Positions 1,703 through 24,122 of a stretch of 24,122 nucleotides of DNA are shown here, piece by piece; the stretch's first letter is position 1; every line of letters starts with the position of its first letter. Below the pieces are notes generated by a model. That model did no database searches. It worked only from the letters and a program-made list of their open reading frames with translations, and was not told the DNA's origin. The DNA comes from a phage, in NCBI GenBank assembly GCA_012086945.1, contig GCA_012086945.1_3922.1. One strand, given 5' to 3'. The translations under genes were made by a program, and so were the position numbers.

Positions 1703-1730
1703 AAGCCCTCCTATATAAGATATTGTATAA

Positions 1731-1750
1731 GGTACTCTTCCATGAGTACC
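1731..1750 (-). other. perfect 7-bp stem / 6-nt loop hairpin (GGTACTC-TTCCAT-GAGTACC) between polymerase gene and next gene, no clear T-tract
   Basis: Inverted repeat read directly from sequence. Confidence 0.35.
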
Positions 1751-1763
1751 TTGTCAATACTAA

Positions 1764-4463
1764 TTAGTGCACTTCAAGCCAGCTTTTACCAACCTTACCA
1801 GTACCTGTTACAAGTGTTTCTTTCTTAAGACCTAAATTCTTAGAAGCTTGTCCATAATACCAGTCAGTAACTGCTTTCACTTCTGCCGTCATACTTTCTG
1901 GACATTCCCAGCTTGTTTCATCGTGATATGCGCAGAGCAAACGAGCACCAATAGCTGGTTTACGACCATTTAACTTCATCAAACCTTCGTCAATCATACG
2001 ACGACAAGCAAGGTTAATTGCCTCATTTTGAATCTGAGCCTCTGAACCCATCAAAAGATAGTTCAACAGTTTGTGTGGAGATTTACACCACAACCAAGCT
2101 CCAGCAACCTTTACAAATCCCCCTTTAGAGATTGCAGCGGTCTTACCAAAAACCTCTTCAAGTGCCTTTTTAGTCGCTTTGTAGTCAGCTTCCAAGTCAT
2201 CTAGCAACTTCTTAATTTTAGGCAAACGAATAAAGTAAGTCTGTTTAGTCAGTGCACCTTCCTGAGTAGTTGCAGCTTTAATTGTCTTAGCAAACTTCTC
2301 ATCACCTGCACCGAACAGCAGTGCATAGATACCATTCTTAGCTTTTTTACGACCCTTACTAATCTCATGGAGAAGATTCTCATCCTGAGTGGCTCGACAA
2401 GTCAAGATATCCTGCTCATCATTCAAGCTAAAGTAAATACTGTTCAGTGTGTGTGCATCAGTCCCTGAATAGACAACGTACAGGTCATTCTCAGAGTCAT
2501 AGCGGAGGTACTTATCAATCTCTGGGTTGAGGTACTCATCAAAGTGTTTGCAGTAATAGCGTCCATCTTCTTGACGAATAAACTCAATCTCTTCTTTACC
2601 TTGCGTTACCGCTTTGGTGAAGTCTTTGTCACCCATAAAGTTACAAAGAAGAACTAGCTGGGCTGAGTTCATGTCTACAGAGACAACGTTAGTACCTTCT
2701 TCACAAATCCATACTGCCCTCATTGGTTCCCCATAGACAGCAGCACCAGACGGTACGTTTACAATACCATATTGTGTCATACGTCCAGTTGAAGTACCAA
2801 ATACCATTGCACCAGCACTAAGGCGACCATCTGGACGAATCTGGTTTAGCCAACCTTTTTCATCATCCTTTGAGTTCTCAATGGTTCTGCGTCGGTGCAT
2901 CAAAGTATAGTATTTAGCAATCTTCTGTCCAAGCTCACCTTCAATCGTATCATAAGAAGATTCAGTAAGTTTTGGTGAAGTACGGATTAAGCAAGGTTCA
3001 AGCAAATCCGTGTACTTCTTCACAGACCAGTTATGTTCGATGTACTGGACACCTTCGTGTTCAACATAACTCAACCCACACCGTTCAACCATCTCCTGCC
3101 ACTTAGGATGCTTTGTAATCATCTTTTTGTTGTCTTTGAAACGACAAACTTTGACAGGGCGACCGTCTGAATCTTTCTTGTAGTTCCAGTCATCTGGAAT
3201 CCAACCAACTGATTTCAAGTAGTCTTTAACAACTGCTACCTGAGTCATACGAGAAACTTCAAACTCAATTGGTGTATATGGTGCATCAATCAATCCTGTG
3301 TAGCGACTTGACTCAAGCTCAAAGTGGTTAACAACATGACTGTTATAGTACTTCACAGTTTTAACTGTTTTTACTGGCTTCCAGTCTTTGCATTTCTTAC
3401 CAATCTTTGCATTCAACTCATTGCAAATTGCACGAGCATCCTTCATTGCTACAAAACCCTCCTTGTACTCTTCACCAGTTACAGAGTTGGTTGGTGTATA
3501 GCAATTTCTCTTTTCAATGTTAAAAATCTTTGTAGTTGGCTTACCAAATGGCTTGATTTCATATGTCTGCATCTCACCGTTACGTACCTGCTGACGATAC
3601 TTCGTCTTAGGGTACTTGGTAATTCTCTTCAGTCCATCTGCGTGACCAAATGCTTCAACATACTCATTCCAAGCTTTTGCAAACTCTTCTCCAGTGACTT
3701 TACCTTTGGTCTTAATAGTTGGAGGAAGATGTGGTTCAACTTCTGAAGCAAGCTCATTAGTCAACTTGTCAAGTTCCTTTACATGGAACTCCATAAGCTC
3801 TTTATCAGCTTTCCAACCATTGATAGCTTGTTGACTCATCCAGAAAGATGTTTCTTTAGCTCGCATATAGGTTTCATAAGTGTCTATGCCACACTTCTTT
3901 AGCTTGAGATACTCATTATCCAGTGCGCGTTTAGTTTTGGCGTTAATACGGATATCTTCCACAACACGAGTGAAGATTTCTGCATTCCACACACCCCAAT
4001 GTTCAATCTCTGGTTTACGGACACCAACACGAGCACCCCATGCAGCCAAGCCATGAGCACCTTTATAGCCTTTTGGAGTTGGTCTATCCATCCACTGAAC
4101 ACGAGACTGGATAAGAGAATCCTGAAAGAAATTACTCCACGGCTTACACTTTGGATTATCAAAGTTCCATAAATCAGGTGCAATGTGATTGAAAACCCAC
4201 CAGTCATAACCCAGACCATTATGGATGCAAAGTCGTTTTGCCTTTAACGCAAACTCAACACCTTCACGTAAACCACCCTTAATGTACTTAGTGTACTTGT
4301 GACCGAGGATAGGCTCATCTGTAAAGACCCATACAGGTGGCTCTTCATCGTCAGATTTATAATCTGCGAAAGCCATTACGTGAACTTTAGTGAACTCAAG
4401 GAGTAAACCATCAGTTTCTGTATCACCAACTAAATGTAAGTTTTTAAAATCTACGTTTTCCAT
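1764..4463 (-). CDS. DNA polymerase, family A (T7 gp5-like) with N-terminal 3'-5' exonuclease domain
   Basis: Exo I motif VGDTETDG; motif A VVSVDMNSAQLVLL; motif B RKKAKNGIYALLFGAGDEKFA; motif C AYHDE; recalled similarity to T7 gp5 (e.g. YTPIEFEV vs YTPVEHVV). Start set at ATG 4463 (MENVDF...), preceded by AGAGGGAG; the track start at 4493 lacks an SD. Confidence 0.9.
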   Translation of the reverse strand: MENVDFKNLHLVGDTETDGLLLEFTKVHVMAFADYKSDDEEPPVWVFTDEPILGHKYTKYIKGGLREGVEFALKAKRLCIHNGLGYDWWVFNHIAPDLWNFDNPKCKPWSNFFQDSLIQSRVQWMDRPTPKGYKGAHGLAAWGARVGVRKPEIEHWGVWNAEIFTRVVEDIRINAKTKRALDNEYLKLKKCGIDTYETYMRAKETSFWMSQQAINGWKADKELMEFHVKELDKLTNELASEVEPHLPPTIKTKGKVTGEEFAKAWNEYVEAFGHADGLKRITKYPKTKYRQQVRNGEMQTYEIKPFGKPTTKIFNIEKRNCYTPTNSVTGEEYKEGFVAMKDARAICNELNAKIGKKCKDWKPVKTVKTVKYYNSHVVNHFELESSRYTGLIDAPYTPIEFEVSRMTQVAVVKDYLKSVGWIPDDWNYKKDSDGRPVKVCRFKDNKKMITKHPKWQEMVERCGLSYVEHEGVQYIEHNWSVKKYTDLLEPCLIRTSPKLTESSYDTIEGELGQKIAKYYTLMHRRRTIENSKDDEKGWLNQIRPDGRLSAGAMVFGTSTGRMTQYGIVNVPSGAAVYGEPMRAVWICEEGTNVVSVDMNSAQLVLLCNFMGDKDFTKAVTQGKEEIEFIRQEDGRYYCKHFDEYLNPEIDKYLRYDSENDLYVVYSGTDAHTLNSIYFSLNDEQDILTCRATQDENLLHEISKGRKKAKNGIYALLFGAGDEKFAKTIKAATTQEGALTKQTYFIRLPKIKKLLDDLEADYKATKKALEEVFGKTAAISKGGFVKVAGAWLWCKSPHKLLNYLLMGSEAQIQNEAINLACRRMIDEGLMKLNGRKPAIGARLLCAYHDETSWECPESMTAEVKAVTDWYYGQASKNLGLKKETLVTGTGKVGKSWLEVH

Positions 4464-4493
4464 TTTTACTCCCTCTAAAATCATTAACCTCAT

Positions 4494-4719
4494 ACATTAC
4501 TGCAAAAAATTATAAAAAGCAAGTTGACAATGTACTTGACAAGGTGTTAATCTTTGCGAAGTGGGTTTTACTTAAAAGGTTACTTAACAGTTTAACTATA
4601 CAGATACTTTAAAACTCTTAAAAGATTATTTAATAGCTTTTAAAAAGCTTTAAAGTATAACGTATAGAATACGTTAAGATAAAAGATTAAAACTTAATAG
4701 TTACTTAAAAGAGGCTTAC
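4494..4719. promoter_or_regulatory. AT-rich divergent intergenic control region
   Basis: Lies between the minus-strand polymerase and the plus-strand gene array. Contains direct repeats TTGACAA (4524..4530, 4536..4542), a minus-strand TATAAT (4509..4514), and an inverted repeat TAACGTAT-aga-ATACGTTA (4658..4676). Confidence 0.45.
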
Positions 4720-5142
4720 ATGCAGAAAATGTTTGTTCACCCAGACATAGCTGACTTTGTTAGAGCTTTGCAGAAGTTGGAAGAACTTGACATTGCTGCT
4801 CAACGGGAATATGCTCACCATCACAGGAGAATGGTTGATATACAACATGAAATAGAGTTATCAGAAGACTATGAAGATGACTTAAAATGCTCTGTGTTCG
4901 AGCATATGAAAGACGTTGCTATAGCTAGACGTAAAGCTAAAGACACAGTTGCTTTACTAGATTCTCTTAAAAAGAGGTTGCAAAGTGGTACAGACCTGTG
5001 TAATCTAGCGTCACTGATTAACGATGTTGAAACTTCTTGGGATAGGCACTATTATCCACGTTCTGAAAAGACACTTGACTTTTCTTCATCCGAAAACTTA
5101 AAATGTTCTAGGAAGAAACTTAACCAACTGAGAGAGAAATAA
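4720..5142 (+). CDS. hypothetical early protein (140 aa)
   Basis: ATG preceded by AAAAGAGG; first gene after the control region; no recognised motif. Confidence 0.55.
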   Translation: MQKMFVHPDIADFVRALQKLEELDIAAQREYAHHHRRMVDIQHEIELSEDYEDDLKCSVFEHMKDVAIARRKAKDTVALLDSLKKRLQSGTDLCNLASLINDVETSWDRHYYPRSEKTLDFSSSENLKCSRKKLNQLREK

Positions 5143-6958: not shown

Positions 6959-8936
6959 AGGTCGTAAATTGAAAGAGGCTGGTCAGTTTGTTGGTCATTG
7001 TGCATGTCCACGTTGTGGTTCATCAGATGCTGGTTCAATCTATCATCATGACGATGATTCTTATTCAATGACTTGCTTTAGTTGTAAAAAAGGTTTCCCA
7101 GAGTGGGATTTTGATAAAGGACAAATCGTGAGCACTTATTCTACTGGTTCAGACAATAAAAACCGCACTTTCCGTGGAATGGATTTAGACGATGTAAAAG
7201 AAAACCTAGAAGCAATGGACTTGAAAGATAGGAAGATTCCTGCAAAAGTCCTTGAACGCTTAGGTATCAAGGTTGACATTGACAGTGACGGTGAAATTGA
7301 TGCGCACTTCTATCCAACTTACAAACGTAATGAAGATGGTAAGTTAGAGCACGTTGGTTACCGTGTACGTCACCGTTACCCAGAAGACCATCCAAAAGAG
7401 CACCTACGTGGTAAGCTAAAAGACTTTTCAGGTGGTGTTGGAGACATTAAAGGTGAACTGGCAATGTTCGGTTCATGGATTGCTCCAGAAGGTGGTAACC
7501 GTCTATTCATCTGGGAAGGTGAGATGGAATGTGCGACAGCAATCTATATGACCTCTCTTGCGATTAAAGACAAGTCTCGTCGTAAGAATTACTGTCATGT
7601 ATCTGTTCCGTCAGGTGCAAACATCAAGTCTATCAAAGATAACTATCAGTACATCACATCATTTGATGAGATTTACTTGTGCTTTGATAACGATGAAGCA
7701 GGTGCTAAAGCTACCAAAGAGGCTGCTGGTATCTTACCTATTGAGAAGGTTCGTTTATTCCAGTATCCAGAAGGTGTAAAAGACCTTAATGAATGGTGGA
7801 CAAAGTTCTATAAAGAGAAAGACACAGTGCTTGAAGGGTTTAAGCAGCGTATCTACAATGCACCTCGTTATTGCCCTGCTGGTATCAAGAACTTTGCAGA
7901 TGGTTTTGAGGCAATGAAGAATCGTGGTCAGATTCCATTGATTCCTTTCCCAGAGTCTTTCGGGGATTTGAACAGACTGACTTATGGTGGTTATGGTTTA
8001 GGTGAGATTACGACTATTGCAGCACCATCTTCAGTAGGTAAGTCAGCTTACACTCGTGAGATGATTTATTCAGCTTGGAAAGAAACTGATTATAATATTG
8101 GTGTAATTCCTGTAGAAGATACTTACGAAGAACTTATGGAAATGCTCTGTGCAATCCACCTAAGTAAGCAGATTTCTGAGATTCCTTATGACGAACGTGA
8201 TTGGGATGAATTAAAAGGAGCACACGCAGAACTTTCAAAAGGTCGTCGTATCCACATTGTGGACCATCAAGGGGCTATTGACCAAGATAACCTGCTGGAA
8301 TTTGTTGACTATCTTGTTAACAGTTTAGATTGCAAGATTATCATTCTTGACCCTATTACGTTGGCTCTGTCACGTTCAGATACGGATGAAGAGGAAGTTC
8401 TGTCTGAATTATTGCGTCGTTGCAAACGCTACCAGTATGCACAGGTGAACGTCTGTCACGTTCGTAAGAGCGCAGGTGGTCAGAAAGCTAACTCTGAAGG
8501 TGGAGACATCTCTGAAGAGGATATTAAAGGTTCTGGTGCGTATTTCCAGATTTCTATGAACAACATTCTGTTAATGCGTAACAAGGTTGACCCAGACCCT
8601 GTTAAGAAAAACTTGACAAAAATCAAGTTAACTAAATGTCGTCGTCACGGTAAGTCAACGGGTATTGCTGGTCATACTTGGTACAATCCAGATACAGGAC
8701 GCCTCATCAAAGCATCTGGTTGTGGGGTTGACATTGATGGTGCAGCAGAAAATATTCGCCAACAGTTTGGTATTGGCGAAGCTGAAGACCATTACGATGA
8801 CTCTTTGCCACATTATGAGGATGAAGTGTTTGACCGTGAGACTGGTGAAGTCTATACTGAAGAGCAGCGTCAAAGCTCAACGATTCCACCTGTATTAAGT
8901 GAGGATGCAGATGACTGCCCATTCGAAACTGAGTGA
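6951..8936 (+). CDS. bifunctional DNA primase-helicase (T7 gp4-like)
   Basis: N-terminal zinc ribbon CPRCGSS...CFSCKK; TOPRIM motifs WEGEMECATAI and FDNDEAGAKATKEAAGILP; Walker A APSSVGKSAY; Walker B IIILDP; C-terminal KLTKCRRHGKSTGIAGHTW and acidic tail, all parallel to recalled T7 gp4. Start moved to ATG 6951 with GAGG upstream; the track start at 6945 is GTG. Confidence 0.9.
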   Translation: MSKGRKLKEAGQFVGHCACPRCGSSDAGSIYHHDDDSYSMTCFSCKKGFPEWDFDKGQIVSTYSTGSDNKNRTFRGMDLDDVKENLEAMDLKDRKIPAKVLERLGIKVDIDSDGEIDAHFYPTYKRNEDGKLEHVGYRVRHRYPEDHPKEHLRGKLKDFSGGVGDIKGELAMFGSWIAPEGGNRLFIWEGEMECATAIYMTSLAIKDKSRRKNYCHVSVPSGANIKSIKDNYQYITSFDEIYLCFDNDEAGAKATKEAAGILPIEKVRLFQYPEGVKDLNEWWTKFYKEKDTVLEGFKQRIYNAPRYCPAGIKNFADGFEAMKNRGQIPLIPFPESFGDLNRLTYGGYGLGEITTIAAPSSVGKSAYTREMIYSAWKETDYNIGVIPVEDTYEELMEMLCAIHLSKQISEIPYDERDWDELKGAHAELSKGRRIHIVDHQGAIDQDNLLEFVDYLVNSLDCKIIILDPITLALSRSDTDEEEVLSELLRRCKRYQYAQVNVCHVRKSAGGQKANSEGGDISEEDIKGSGAYFQISMNNILLMRNKVDPDPVKKNLTKIKLTKCRRHGKSTGIAGHTWYNPDTGRLIKASGCGVDIDGAAENIRQQFGIGEAEDHYDDSLPHYEDEVFDRETGEVYTEEQRQSSTIPPVLSEDADDCPFETE

Positions 8937-9192
8937 TAGTTACAAAAGAGAGGGGTTCACACCCTTCTTTGAAGAAAAAAGTTTGAATCAATTTCAAGCA
9001 GAGTGTTTGACAAAGATTGATAGGTTCTATATAATGCTCTACATGAAATGCGATGGAGAAGTTGAAATAGAAGAGCAGTTCCATCAAAGCATAATTACAG
9101 TCACCGTTACTCTACCTGAGCATAATATTGGTTGGCTATTTATAATTAAAGAAAATGTGTTTGAATATCAAGTATATCGGAGAATATTATGA
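8899..9192 (+). CDS. hypothetical protein, start uncertain (candidate ATGs at 8899, 8911, 9043)
   Basis: Overlaps the primase-helicase 3' end in another frame; its stop overlaps the next ATG as ATGA. Contains the consensus promoter at 9007..9035, so the real product may begin at ATG 9043. Confidence 0.35.
   Translation: MRMQMTAHSKLSDSYKREGFTPFFEEKSLNQFQAECLTKIDRFYIMLYMKCDGEVEIEEQFHQSIITVTVTLPEHNIGWLFIIKENVFEYQVYRRIL
9007..9035 (+). promoter_or_regulatory. sigma70-type promoter, perfect consensus (TTGACA-N17-TATAAT)
   Basis: TTGACA 9007..9012, 17-nt spacer, TATAAT 9030..9035, read directly from sequence. Confidence 0.6.
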
Positions 9193-9345: not shown

Positions 9346-9374
9346 TTGACAATAGAGTATCAACAAACTAGAAT
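9346..9374 (+). promoter_or_regulatory. sigma70-type promoter (TTGACA-N17-TAGAAT) upstream of the SSB gene
   Basis: TTGACA 9346..9351, 17-nt spacer, TAGAAT 9369..9374; about 37 nt upstream of ATG 9411. Confidence 0.5.
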
Positions 9375-20274: not shown

Positions 20275-20284
20275 AACTTGACAT

Positions 20285-20322
20285 GGTGGTGTGAGTCTTG
20301 ATAGGCTTACATCACCTTTTTT
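20285..20322 (+). terminator. rho-independent terminator candidate after nrdD
   Basis: GGTGGTGTGAG ... CTTACATCACC stem (with G-U pairs) followed by TTTTTT. Confidence 0.5.
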
Positions 20323-20336
20323 ATTGGATGTTAGAT

Positions 20337-23371: not shown

Positions 23372-23836
23372 ATGATTTTTTGCAATTCCCAGAAGCATGT
23401 AATAGAGATTCTATATAAGGAGTTTGGTACAGAGAACACCTTTGACTCAAATGAAGCAATTGATGTACTAAGAGAAAAAAGCCTCTTTATAAGAGGTCAA
23501 TCAATTAACAATGCTCGTGGCTACCTAACAGTGCTAAGGCAATCCGGTGTACTGATAACTGTAGGCCAAATAAAAAGTAAGGGGAGACTAAGCATCAACC
23601 AGATTAACCGAGCTTTTATGGAGAAACACCCACAACTATCACGAATGTTAGATGATGGACATGGGGAGGTAAAGAGCCTTCAAAAAACAACCTCGACCGA
23701 TGTTAATTCAGTTGACATACAACCAGATGTTAGGTATTTTATTGAGGATGTGATGTTTAAAACAATGGATGAAGCAGTTGAACACTGTAAAAAACATCTG
23801 ATTAAAGTTAAACGTGCAAAGATTGTTTGGGAATAA
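23372..23836 (+). CDS. hypothetical protein, first copy of a tandem paralogue pair (track 23351..23836 shortened to ATG 23372)
   Basis: The track start is TTG inside the GA repeat; ATG 23372 gives MIFCNSQKHVIEILYKEFGTENTFDSNEAIDVLRE..., paralogous to the next ORF. Confidence 0.55.
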   Translation: MIFCNSQKHVIEILYKEFGTENTFDSNEAIDVLREKSLFIRGQSINNARGYLTVLRQSGVLITVGQIKSKGRLSINQINRAFMEKHPQLSRMLDDGHGEVKSLQKTTSTDVNSVDIQPDVRYFIEDVMFKTMDEAVEHCKKHLIKVKRAKIVWE

Positions 23837-23869
23837 TACTTCAAAAACTTCTATTGAGAGAAAAAGAAC

Positions 23870-24122
23870 ATGTTAAGTTCATTTTACATAGCACTGACTG
23901 AGATTCTATATAAAGAATTTGGTACAGATACCATCTTTGACTCTAATGAGGCTATAAAAGCTCTCAGAAGTGGAAGTGACTGCCTAAGTAAAAGCCCTAT
24001 AGCAAACATTCGGTATTACTTGACCACAATGCGTAAAATGGGGCTACTGATGGCTGTAAGTCAGGGAACAAAAGACTGTGCTTCTCTATACCTAAACCAA
24101 CTAAATAAAATGATGATAGAGA
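23870..24122 (+). CDS. hypothetical protein, second copy of the tandem paralogue pair, 3' end truncated by window edge
   Basis: Hand translation MLSSFYIALTEILYKEFGTDTIFDSNEAIKALRSGSD...YYLTTMRKMGLLMAVSQ aligns with the 23372..23836 product; the nucleotide sequences are also similar. Confidence 0.5.
   Translation, partial: MLSSFYIALTEILYKEFGTDTIFDSNEAIKALRSGSDCLSKSPIANIRYYLTTMRKMGLLMAVSQGTKDCASLYLNQLNKMMIE

What the first reader, a model, noticed from the sequence alone, without database searches (positions are those of the whole stretch)
4494..4719. AT-rich divergent control region with direct and inverted repeats; candidate operator cluster or replication origin
The 226-bp spacer between the polymerase gene (minus) and the early plus-strand genes contains two TTGACAA copies 12 bp apart (4524..4530, 4536..4542), a minus-strand TATAAT (4509..4514) without a properly spaced -35, a near-palindrome AGCTTTTAAAAAGCT, and an 8-bp inverted repeat TAACGTAT-aga-ATACGTTA (4658..4676) just upstream of the first gene. 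The same TTGACAA motif forms the -35 of both downstream promoters.
Basis: seen in the sequence. Interest (0 to 1): 0.55.

Follow-up and report, generated by a model that had tools for sequence, protein, structure and literature searches.

The report
Felix O1-type phage divergent promoter region
This is the strongly conserved control region between the DNA polymerase gene and the replication-gene operon of a Felix O1-like phage: it most likely holds two back-to-back host-type promoters followed by a very AT-rich, hairpin-forming untranslated leader, so it is an expected kind of element, with a few unexplained details.

Summary
The window is a Felixounavirus, 99.3% identical to Escherichia phage wV8. 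The finding is the spacer between Felix O1 genes 96 (DNA polymerase) and 97. The literature assumes divergent promoters there but never identified them.

The spacer is probably 256 bp, because the polymerase most likely starts at 4463.

The region is under selection. It is 80-85% identical across three genera, against 49-66% at third codon positions.

Conservation footprints indicate two sigma-70 promoters with -35 boxes 1 bp apart:
- P_R: TTGACA 4524-4529, 18-nt spacer, TGn, TAATCT 4548-4553.
- P_L for the polymerase: TTGCTT 4522..4517, 17-nt spacer, TAATGT 4499..4494.

The minus-strand TATAAT is not conserved.

New observations:
- The tandem TTGACAA module occurs exactly twice per genome, once at each divergent intergenic region. 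Its second hexamer lies inside the P_R spacer and is unexplained.
- The ~160-nt leader is the most AT-rich and least stable 150 bp of the genome in two genera.
- The leader carries a ~95-nt dyad with two coordinated compensatory changes.

Best reading: divergent promoters plus a structured AU-rich 5' leader. A transcription-activated origin or an operator role is not excluded. No transcription start or origin data exist. Interest is moderate.

The parts
4461..4478 (-). Most likely true start of the DNA polymerase gene (ATG 4463..4461) with its ribosome-binding site GAGGGAG (4476..4470).
   Evidence: Sequence. This is the start annotated in SUSP2, Moogle and Sf17. The region is invariant in the alignment.
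4494..4522 (-). Candidate polymerase promoter P_L1: -35 TTGCTT (4522..4517), 17-nt spacer, -10 TAATGT (4499..4494). The predicted start is about 4487, giving a leader of about 23 nt.
   Evidence: the -35 is invariant; the spacer is always 17 nt but has 6 different sequences; the -10 is TAATGT, TAAGGT, TAGTGT or TAGGGT, so T-12, A-11 and T-7 are invariant. The match to consensus is weak.
4514..4547 (+). Conserved module AAAAAGCAAG-TTGACAA-tgtac-TTGACAAGGTGT. It has one paralogue, at the genome's other divergent intergenic region.
   Evidence: exactly two copies in wV8 (66281 and 23802); both hexamers are invariant in three genera at both loci, while the bases between them vary.
4524..4553 (+). 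Candidate rightward promoter P_R: -35 TTGACA (4524-4529), 18-nt spacer, TG at 4545-4546, -10 TAATCT (4548-4553). The predicted start is about 4559-4561.
   Evidence: It is the best plus-strand promoter score in every genus. The -10 is TAATCT or TAGTCT and the spacer is 18 nt in all sequences. phiEa104 has TTGACA N18 TACATT at the equivalent place. The GenBank record MZ726792 annotates a predicted promoter at the same -35.
4536..4542 (+). Second TTGACAA. It lies inside the P_R spacer, has no properly spaced -10, and is invariant. Its function is unknown.
   Evidence: It aligns with the -35 of the wV8 early-region repeat promoters (AAGTACTTTACAAGG).
4557..4581 (+). Invariant block CGAAGTGGGTTTT (4557-4569), around the predicted P_R start, followed by ACTTAAAAGGTT (4570-4581), which is shared with the paralogous leader.
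   Evidence: CGAAGTGGGTTTT is unique in the genome.
4595..4622 (-). Alternative or additional leftward promoter candidate P_L2: TTTAAG (4622..4617), 16-nt spacer, TATAGT (4600..4595).
   Evidence: It is annotated as a predicted promoter in MZ726792 and scores 6.3-6.7 in every genus. Its boxes also form part of helices 2 and 4 of the dyad, so their conservation is ambiguous.
4559..4708 (.). Extremely AT-rich untranslated leader, 79% A+T over 150 bp.
   Evidence: It is the most AT-rich 100- and 150-bp stretch of the window and of the whole 88.5-kb wV8 genome, and the least stable 150 bp by nearest-neighbour energy. The same holds for the diverged orthologous region of phiEa104. It contains no ORF.
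4583..4678 (+). Imperfect dyad or hairpin of about 95 nt, with four helices: 4583-4588/4673-4678, 4596-4601/4662-4667, 4607-4613/4649-4655 and 4618-4624/4637-4643.
   Evidence: MFE z-score -2.9. RNAalifold consensus. 98.6% of cells are paired, and the outer helix has 2 pairs changed on both sides. The arms were checked to be complementary.
4658..4676 (+). 8-bp inverted repeat TAACGTAT-aga-ATACGTTA. It is mutually exclusive with helices 1 and 2 of the large dyad. Its centre is TAGAAT, a -10-like hexamer (4665-4670).
   Evidence: pair I23; two compensatory pairs; the right arm covaries with both the proximal and the distal left arm. The site is unique in the genome.
4706..4722 (+). Ribosome-binding site (AAGAGG, 4708-4713) and ATG (4720) of the first rightward gene. 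This is a 140-aa protein of unknown function, the homologue of Felix O1 gp97.
   Evidence: phrog_4039 of unknown function; no Pfam or PDB match.

Best explanation
The region is the divergent transcription-control region of the replication gene cluster of a Felix O1-like phage.

Host sigma-70 RNA polymerase is proposed to use two back-to-back promoters whose -35 boxes are 1 bp apart.
- P_L: TTGCTT, 17-nt spacer, TAATGT. It drives the DNA polymerase gene leftward through a short leader.
- P_R: TTGACA, 18-nt spacer, TGn, TAATCT. It drives the rightward operon: gp97 homologue, gp98, dNMP kinase, primase/helicase.

P_R belongs to a module of about 35 nt whose only other copy heads the genome's second rightward transcription unit. 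The two units are therefore probably switched on or off together. The invariant second TTGACAA inside the spacer is the best candidate for the shared regulatory contact.

P_R then transcribes a leader of about 160 nt and 79% A+T. The leader folds into a long hairpin (4583-4678) or, alternatively, a short one (4658-4676). It most likely acts at the RNA level on stability, processing or translation of the operon mRNA.

What is shown: the sequence features, their conservation, the paralogy of the module, the covariation and the AT extreme.
What is inferred: that these are the promoters actually used, the start sites, and that the hairpin acts as RNA.
For: Identity and literature:
- The window is 99.3% identical to wV8, and the region equals the Felix O1 gene 96/97 spacer.
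- Whichard et al. 2010 (PMC3185647) assumed divergent early promoters here but found none.

Selection:
- The spacer is 80-85% identical between Felixounavirus and Suspvirus or Mooglevirus. Third codon positions are 62-65% (polymerase) and 49-66% (gp97) identical.
- The downstream protein is only 61-75% identical.

Promoter footprints:
- P_R is the top-scoring plus-strand candidate in every genus. It has an invariant -35, a constant 18-nt spacer, a conserved TG, and a -10 of TAATCT or TAGTCT.
- The distant Kolesnikvirus keeps TTGACA N18 TACATT.
- P_L has an invariant -35, a 17-nt spacer with six different sequences, and a -10 of TA[AG][TG]GT.
- The phage clearly uses sigma-70 consensus promoters elsewhere: 9007, 9346 and 20278.

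Module:
- It has exactly two copies per genome, one at each divergent region.
- Both hexamers are invariant at both loci in three genera.

Leader:
- It has no ORF.
- The hairpin z-score is -2.9.
- Two independent lineage events each changed three mutually complementary positions together. In one lineage this was 3 of only 5 substitutions.
- The paralogous leader also forms a long hairpin (z-score -3.2). Its pairs are kept as C-G, U-A or U.G, and as G.U or A-U. That works only for plus-strand RNA.
Against: - There are no experimental transcription start data for any Felix O1-like phage.
- Both -10 boxes match consensus at only 3 of 6 positions, and P_L's -35 also at 3 of 6. The tool's promoter scan did not call them.
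- The P_R score (10.2) is within the range of the best scores in shuffled AT-rich sequence: median 9.2, 95th percentile 11.8.
- A second leftward candidate exists (TTTAAG N16 TATAGT, 4622..4595).
- The second TTGACAA is not explained by a simple promoter model.
- The hairpin does not cover the ribosome-binding site, so no regulatory logic is evident.
- Loops and unpaired stretches are as invariant as the stems. That suggests constraints beyond RNA pairing.
- Only two covariation events exist, and both strands fold about equally well.
- The wobble evidence comes from the paralogue, not from this locus.
- The Kolesnikvirus leaders show no significant overall fold.
Confidence: 0.62

Rival explanations
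1. Transcription-activated replication origin. The P_R transcript invades or persists in the genome's most easily melted DNA (4559-4708) and primes leading-strand synthesis by the T7-like polymerase. The gp4-like primase/helicase then loads on the displaced strand. This is the arrangement of the T7 primary origin (tandem promoters phi1.1A and phi1.1B plus an AT-rich region) and of T4 oriF and oriG (promoter plus DNA unwinding element). It does not exclude the promoter reading.
For: - The leader is the most AT-rich and thermodynamically least stable 150-bp stretch of the 88.5-kb wV8 genome and of the window.
- The orthologous but diverged region of phiEa104 is again rank 1 in its 84.6-kb genome.
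- It lies directly downstream of a promoter, between the family-A polymerase gene and the operon that includes the primase/helicase gene.
- The other divergent region, which carries the same module, is also among the least stable: rank 5 in wV8 and rank 2 in phiEa104 at 100 bp.
- The leader's sequence blocks are single-copy, unlike a general promoter class.
- The comparison with T7 and T4 origins rests on my own knowledge of those systems.
Against: - No origin data exist.
- There are no iterons or DnaA boxes.
- The GC-skew minimum at 4500 follows gene orientation and is not independent evidence.
- An unwinding element needs composition, not sequence, yet the leader has 92% mean column identity and compensatory changes.
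- An AU-rich 5' leader would by itself produce the same AT extreme.
Confidence: 0.3
2. Operator cluster. A phage-encoded (or host) DNA-binding protein recognises two sets of sites. One is the palindrome TAACGTAT-N3-ATACGTTA, which overlaps a -10-like TAGAAT, plus a related half-site CTTAAC at 4583-4588. The other is the direct repeats TTGACAA-N5-TTGACAA, which overlap P_R. Binding would give timed repression or activation of the replication operon.
For: - The palindrome is kept through compensatory changes in both arms.
- The same base changes occur in a third, distal copy of the motif (CTT[AAC], then [TAC], then [TAT]). This is what co-evolution of sites with a protein's specificity would give.
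- The palindrome is centred on TAGAAT or TAACAT, with T-12, A-11 and T-7 kept.
- The second TTGACAA is invariant although it lies in a promoter spacer, at both paralogous loci.
- Unpaired positions of the leader are as conserved as paired ones.
Against: - No regulator has been identified.
- The palindrome occurs only once in the genome.
- No usable -35 lies upstream of TAGAAT.
- The paralogous leader has a hairpin of unrelated sequence whose pairs include G.U. That points to RNA rather than a DNA site.
- A Pho-box-like reading of the direct repeats fails: the period is 12 rather than 11, and the match is 5 of 7.
Confidence: 0.25
3. There is no specific element. The spacer is simply AT-rich DNA in which hexamers and short palindromes arise by chance.
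For: - TTGACAA is not enriched in the window.
- The promoter scan finds no more sites than shuffles do.
- High-scoring promoter-like pairs are common in shuffled AT-rich sequence.
Against: - The spacer is conserved far above synonymous sites across three genera.
- The module is duplicated at the second divergent locus, with the same invariant positions.
- Coordinated triple substitutions occurred twice.
- The AT extreme is conserved in a diverged genus.
Confidence: 0.03

Closest known systems
Felix O1 gene 96/97 intergenic region (Whichard et al. 2010, PMC3185647) and the predicted promoters annotated in Escherichia phage vB_EcoM_ASO1B (MZ726792)
   Same: It is the same locus, with near-identical sequence in Felix O1. 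The paper assumes that early transcription starts from divergent promoters here. ASO1B annotates a plus-strand promoter at the same -35 (window 4524-4551) and a minus-strand one at 4622..4596.
   Different: The paper reports that no sigma-70-like sequence was found in this spacer. The following are not described there: the cross-genus footprint, the P_L1 candidate, the two-copy module, the dyad with covariation and the genome-wide AT extreme. All promoter calls remain predictions.
T7 primary replication origin (promoters phi1.1A and phi1.1B plus an AT-rich region, next to the R1.1 RNase III hairpin) and T4 oriF and oriG (middle promoter plus DNA unwinding element); from my own knowledge
   Same: A promoter signal (here with a tandem -35) is followed directly by the most easily melted DNA. 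The element lies in the replication-gene neighbourhood of a phage with a T7-like polymerase and a gp4-like primase/helicase.
   Different: The promoters here are host sigma-70 type, and only one of the two hexamers has a -10. The AT-rich part is about 150 bp and strongly sequence-conserved. Origin activity is untested.
PeSL promoter-early stem-loop cassettes of T4-type phages (Arbiol 2010, PMC2839356; Comeau 2014, PMC4122927)
   Same: The -35 core with its flanks (AAGTACTTkACAAGG) is shared with a dispersed family of promoter-plus-stem-loop repeats in the wV8 early region (DR_1, DR_7 and DR_9). These look like PeSLs.
   Different: The module at this locus has no G+C-rich stem-loop in its spacer, has only two copies, and sits at the two divergent junctions rather than flanking small variable ORFs.
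Structured 5' leaders and processing hairpins of phage early mRNAs, for example T7 RNase III sites and the AU-rich T4 gene 32 translational operator; from my own knowledge
   Same: A long, irregular, AU-rich hairpin sits between the promoter and the first ribosome-binding site. The paralogous leader has one too, with wobble-compatible substitutions.
   Different: No Rfam family matches. The helices are short (6-7 bp) and interrupted. The ribosome-binding site is not sequestered. No processing or binding data exist.

Membership tests
Sigma-70 (housekeeping) bacterial promoter | -35 hexamer close to TTGACA | tested here: met
   P_R is TTGACA (6 of 6) and invariant. P_L1 is TTGCTT (3 of 6, with TTG kept) and invariant.
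Sigma-70 (housekeeping) bacterial promoter | -10 hexamer TAnnnT placed 16-18 bp from the -35 | tested here: met
   P_R: 18-nt spacer, TAATCT or TAGTCT, with an upstream TGn. P_L1: 17-nt spacer, TA[AG][TG]GT. T-12, A-11 and T-7 are invariant in all genera. Only 3 of 6 positions match consensus, so the tool's stricter scan did not list them.
Sigma-70 (housekeeping) bacterial promoter | A mapped transcription start, or RNA polymerase binding | not testable with these tools
   No transcription-start or RNA-seq study of Felix O1-like phages was found. RT-PCR shows only that ORFs 96 and 97 are transcribed.
Transcription-activated phage origin (T7 phi1.1 or T4 oriF type) | A promoter immediately upstream of an easily unwound AT-rich stretch | tested here: met
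   The P_R candidate is followed by the least stable 150 bp of the genome in wV8 and in phiEa104.
Transcription-activated phage origin (T7 phi1.1 or T4 oriF type) | Initiation of DNA synthesis at the site | not testable with these tools
   No replication data are available. GC skew is confounded by gene orientation.
Iteron-type origin (lambda or plasmid-like) | An array of at least 3 direct repeats of about 17-22 bp, next to an AT-rich region | tested here: not met
   Only two-copy direct repeats of 83% identity or less were found, apart from the 7-10-nt hexamer pair. Leader blocks are single-copy.
Palindromic operator bound by a dimeric repressor | An inverted repeat overlapping a promoter element, with symmetry maintained in evolution | tested here: inconclusive
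   The 8-bp arms are kept by compensatory changes and are centred on a -10-like TAGAAT. That hexamer has no usable -35, and the same data fit an RNA hairpin.
Palindromic operator bound by a dimeric repressor | A cognate DNA-binding protein | not tested
   wV8 encodes an annotated 'transcriptional regulator' (gp092). No link to this site was examined.
Conserved structured RNA element (5' leader) | A consensus secondary structure supported by covariation | tested here: inconclusive
   There are 26 pairs with 98.6% of cells paired, and 2 pairs show changes on both sides. These come from only 2 evolutionary events. The paralogue shows G.U-compatible changes. The two strands fold about equally well.
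Conserved structured RNA element (5' leader) | Membership of a described RNA family | tested here: not met
   No Rfam family reaches its gathering score anywhere in the window. In 4400-4800 only chance-level hits appear (E-value at least 1.4).
PeSL (promoter-early stem-loop) cassette | A sigma-70-like promoter fused to a terminator-like stem-loop, in many dispersed copies flanking variable small ORFs | tested here: not met
   The module here has no stem-loop in or after the spacer and has only two copies. The related wV8 DR repeats do fit.
PhoB-type pho box (direct 7-bp repeats replacing a -35) | CTGTCAT repeats with an 11-bp period, about 10 bp upstream of a -10 | tested here: not met
   On the minus strand the repeats read TTGTCAA (5 of 7) with a 12-bp period. 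The TATAAT 9 nt downstream is absent outside Felixounavirus.

The most novel reading that the evidence does not exclude
The leader (4559-4708) would be the primary replication origin of Felix O1-like phages, activated by transcription. The transcript from the tandem-hexamer promoter module would prime DNA synthesis in the genome's most easily melted DNA. The same module at the other divergent junction would mark a second origin. The invariant second TTGACAA and the switchable hairpins would then be the parts that couple transcription to initiation. This would be the first origin defined for the Ounavirinae, and a host-polymerase version of the T7 and T4 scheme.
Probability: 0.25. Interest if true: 0.6.

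Novelty: new member of a known kind. Interest (0 to 1): 0.4.

Why it matters
Felix O1-like phages are widely used for Salmonella and E. coli typing and biocontrol. Even so, their transcription programme and replication origin are unmapped. The genome paper explicitly could not find promoters in this spacer.

The comparative footprint gives precise, testable coordinates for the two promoters that head the replication genes.

It also yields three further observations:
- A regulatory module is shared by the two major rightward transcription units.
- An invariant extra -35-like hexamer has no obvious role.
- One 150-bp stretch is both the most meltable DNA of the genome and a conserved hairpin.

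If the promoters are confirmed, they become parts for engineering these phages. If the origin reading is right, it locates replication initiation for a whole subfamily.

Tried and rejected
1. A second promoter using the second TTGACAA. No TAnnnT lies 15-19 nt downstream at this locus or at the paralogue in any genus. Rejected.
2. The minus-strand TATAAT as the polymerase -10. It has no -35 at 15-19 nt, and the hexamer is lost in Suspvirus and Mooglevirus. Rejected.
3. A pho-box or response-regulator reading of the direct repeats. The period and the sequence are both wrong. Rejected.
4. Sigma-32 or other alternative sigma motifs around GTGGGTTTT. No match by eye. Dropped.
5. A small ORF as the cause of the conservation. 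The only ORF wholly inside the spacer is a 22-aa GTG-start ORF (4544-4612), and single-base indels occur between genera. Rejected.
6. Pairing of the invariant GUGGGUUUU with the ribosome-binding site, as seen in the MFE fold. It is not kept in other genera, and RNAalifold does not retain it. Rejected.
7. Rfam families. None match.
8. GC skew as origin evidence. The minima and maxima coincide with every switch of gene orientation. Uninformative.
9. The tandem-hexamer module as a cassette shared with unrelated phages.
   - Two unrelated contig groups in IMG/VR and metagenomes carry AAAAAA..TG-TTGACAAAGnnCTTGACAAGGTG-TAnnnT. One group is T4-like and the other resembles Clostridium phages. One contig is identical to wV8 over 35 nt.
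   - They share no proteins with wV8 apart from one weak dNMP-kinase-like tblastn hit (E 5e-6) in contig L091.
   - The pattern is absent from 185,579 bacterial genomes and from other GenBank phages.
   - Given the size of the collections and selection for TTGACA promoters, two extra families are within expectation. I give this low weight.
10. The function of the first downstream genes. The gp97 and gp98 homologues have no informative Pfam, PHROG or PDB match.
11. More Suspvirus and Mooglevirus genomes, to gain covariation events. They added none.
Full report
**What the window is**

The 600 bp around the finding are 99.3% identical to Escherichia phage wV8 and 95-99% identical to more than 200 Felixounavirus genomes. 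In wV8 the flanking genes are the family-A DNA polymerase (leftward) and a 140-aa hypothetical protein. That protein heads a rightward operon containing 'minor tail protein' gp98, dNMP kinase and the primase/helicase.

The finding is therefore the Felix O1 gene 96/97 intergenic region, and the Felix O1 sequence is almost the same. Whichard et al. 2010 (PMC3185647) assumed that transcription starts from divergent promoters here. They stated that no sigma-70-like sequence was found in this spacer or in the 40/41 spacer apart from P41. I found no transcription-start or RNA-seq study of these phages. One GenBank record, MZ726792, carries purely predicted promoters at window 4524-4551 (+) and 4622..4596 (-).

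**Check of the observation**

Two corrections apply.

- The polymerase most likely starts at ATG 4463. That start has the ribosome-binding site GAGGGAG and is the one annotated in SUSP2, Moogle and Sf17. The spacer is then 256 bp, not 226.
- The small palindromes are parts of a larger imperfect dyad, 4583-4678 (pair I1).

Taken alone the motifs are not statistically striking. TTGACAA occurs 10 times against 8.95 expected. A same-strand pair within 20 nt arises in about 2% of random windows. The consensus scan finds no excess of promoters. The evidence that they matter is comparative.

**Conservation**

I collected the orthologous spacer from Felixounavirus, Suspvirus, Mooglevirus and Kolesnikvirus.

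- Between the window and Suspvirus or Mooglevirus, the spacer is 80-85% identical.
- The adjacent polymerase coding sequence is 84% identical overall but only 62-65% at third codon positions. The figure for gp97 third positions is 49-66%.
- The gp97 protein is only 61-75% identical.

The non-coding DNA is thus under purifying selection along most of its length. It contains no plausible ORF.

**Promoters**

A position-weight scan of both strands in each genus picks the same top plus-strand candidate everywhere. It is TTGACA (4524-4529), an 18-nt spacer, TG at -15/-14, and TAATCT (4548-4553), which reads TAGTCT in some genomes. In Kolesnikvirus the equivalent is TTGACA N18 TACATT.

On the minus strand the candidate is TTGCTT (4522..4517), 17 nt, TAATGT (4499..4494). 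Its conservation pattern is the textbook promoter footprint:

- the -35 is invariant;
- the spacer is always 17 nt but has six different sequences;
- the -10 is TAATGT, TAAGGT, TAGTGT or TAGGGT, so T-12, A-11 and T-7 are fixed.

This candidate places the start about 23 nt upstream of ATG 4463, which supports that start codon. A second leftward candidate (TTTAAG N16 TATAGT, 4622..4595) is also invariant, but its boxes are part of the dyad.

The two -35 boxes are 1 bp apart, so this is a back-to-back divergent pair. Both -10 boxes are weak by consensus. In addition, the P_R score is within the range of shuffled AT-rich sequence. The assignment therefore rests on conservation, not on score.

**The tandem hexamer module**

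A k-mer comparison of the spacer with the whole wV8 genome showed that TTGACAAnGTACTTGACAAGGTGT, together with ACTTAAAAGGTT about 35 nt downstream, occurs at one other place only. That place is the genome's other divergent junction, wV8 genes 45/46, which corresponds to Felix O1 40/41.

There the first hexamer again has a properly spaced -10 (TTGACA N17 TAGGCT). Across three genera both hexamers are invariant while the bases between and after them vary. The second hexamer never has a usable -10.

It aligns with the -35 of a dispersed family of promoter-plus-stem-loop repeats in the wV8 early region (AAGTACTTTACAAGG...). These resemble the PeSL cassettes of T4-type phages.

So the two TTGACAA copies are not two promoters. 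They form one promoter with a conserved -35-like element embedded in its spacer, and the two major rightward transcription units share it. What the second hexamer does is unexplained.

**The leader**

From the predicted start (about 4560) to the ribosome-binding site (4708-4713) lie about 150 nt of 79% A+T.

- This is the most AT-rich 100- and 150-bp stretch of the window.
- It is the most AT-rich and least stable 150 bp of the entire 88.5-kb wV8 genome.
- The orthologous region of phiEa104 is much diverged (polymerase 63% identical, genome 44% G+C). It is nevertheless again rank 1 for 150-bp instability in its 84.6-kb genome.

The leader folds into a hairpin of about 95 nt with four helices (z-score -2.9). 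RNAalifold recovers this hairpin from 16 distinct sequences, and 98.6% of cells are paired.

The two structures therefore exclude each other.

In two separate lineages three mutually complementary positions changed together:

- A, A, T became T, T, A between Felixounavirus and Suspvirus plus Mooglevirus.
- C, C, G became T, T, A in a Mooglevirus subclade, where these are 3 of only 5 substitutions in 175 columns.

This is real signal, but it amounts to only two events. It fits base pairing and equally fits three co-evolving copies of a protein-binding motif.

The paralogous leader at the other junction has an unrelated sequence but also forms a long hairpin (z-score -3.2). There one pair is C-G, U-A or U.G, and another alternates G.U and A-U. 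That pattern is tolerated only in plus-strand RNA, so it tips the balance towards an RNA-level hairpin.

Several points count against a purely RNA role:

- loops are as conserved as stems;
- the ribosome-binding site is not sequestered;
- both strands fold about equally well;
- the Kolesnikvirus leaders show no significant global fold.

No Rfam family matches. The leader's blocks are unique in the genome.

**Weighing the readings**

Promoters must exist here, because two transcription units diverge from this spacer. The footprints say where. I give 0.62 to the combined model of back-to-back sigma-70 promoters, a shared module and a structured AU-rich leader.

- A transcription-activated origin (T7 phi1.1 or T4 oriF style) is compatible with that model. 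It is supported by the conserved genome-wide stability minimum downstream of a promoter in the replication module. There is no direct evidence, and GC skew is uninformative. I give it 0.3.
- An operator role for the palindrome or the direct repeats is also compatible. I give it 0.25.
- Pure chance is excluded by the comparative data.

**Side results and dead ends**

- The tandem-hexamer pattern also occurs, with matching flanks, in two unrelated groups of uncultivated phage contigs. It is absent from 185,579 bacterial genomes and from other GenBank phages. Given the size of the databases, I treat this as probably coincidental.
- The first two downstream proteins have no informative homologues.

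**Verdict**

The 'divergent control region' reading is supported. The 'operator cluster' and 'origin' readings remain open. The element is an uncharacterised member of a familiar kind, with three features worth an experiment: the spacer-embedded second hexamer, the paralogous module, and the leader that is both hairpin and stability minimum.

Noticed in passing
window 4461-4493: Three in-frame ATGs (4493, 4484, 4463) could start the DNA polymerase. wV8 and Felix O1 records use 4484, ORF lists give 4493, and SUSP2, Moogle and Sf17 use 4463. Only 4463 has a Shine-Dalgarno sequence. The candidate promoter P_L1 would place the transcription start downstream of the other two ATGs.
   Followed up: partly
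window 20278-20330: This is a composite promoter and terminator. TTGACA N18 TAGGCT is embedded in a hairpin (GGTGGTGT...ACATCACC) followed by a T-run, and wV8 annotates a terminator here. It resembles the PeSL cassettes of T4-type phages, as do the wV8 early-region repeats DR_1, DR_7 and DR_9 (AAGTACTTTACAAGGGGCTTA-N12-TAAGCCCC), which lie outside this window.
   Followed up: partly
window 9007-9035 and 9346-9374: Two near-perfect sigma-70 promoters: TTGACA N17 TATAAT, inside ORF 8899-9192, and TTGACA N17 TAGAAT, in the gap upstream of gene 9411. They show that the phage relies on host-type promoters.
   Followed up: no
window 1715-1757, minus strand: Just after the polymerase stop there is a third TTGACAAGGT, followed by a hairpin (AAGGTACTC-atggaa-GAGTACCTT) and TATACA 22 nt downstream of the hexamer. 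It may be another -35 plus stem-loop unit serving the small genes downstream of the polymerase.
   Followed up: no
loci L091, L107, L108, L117, L119, L146, L164 (T4-like contigs) and L071, L086, L093, L114, L130, L136, L158 and others (Clostridium-phage-like contigs): Two unrelated groups of uncultivated phages carry AAAAAA..TG-TTGACAAAGnnCTTGACAAGGTG-TAnnnT. L146 is identical to the wV8 45/46 module over 35 nt. In the T4-like group the motif sits in the 70-nt gap upstream of a gp55-like late sigma gene, but on the opposite strand to all neighbouring genes.
   Followed up: partly
wV8 23703-23951 (locus L006); equals the Felix O1 gene 40/41 spacer: The second divergent junction is even more conserved across genera than this one. 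It carries the same tandem hexamer module, a leftward TTGACT N17 TACCAT promoter candidate, and a 33-pair leader hairpin. That hairpin encloses an SD-like AAGAGG paired to CCUCU, just upstream of the real ribosome-binding site.
   Followed up: partly
polymerase gene in related phages (one search hits H96, H99, H101, H103; loci L008, L009): In several relatives the polymerase gene is split in two with an endonuclease between the parts (JLBYU32, BPS15S6, phiWec177, DE7). HNH endonuclease genes sit directly next to the polymerase in Felix O1 (downstream) and in phiEa104 (between the polymerase and the control region). This suggests that homing elements target this gene.
   Followed up: no
wV8 59380-59600 and 60780-60990 (outside the window): Two copies of repeat DR_4 lie in odd C/A-rich stretches (CCCTACC and ACCAGACC runs) and contain CTTTTAAAAAG, as in the leader's central palindrome. 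Their nature is unknown.
   Followed up: no
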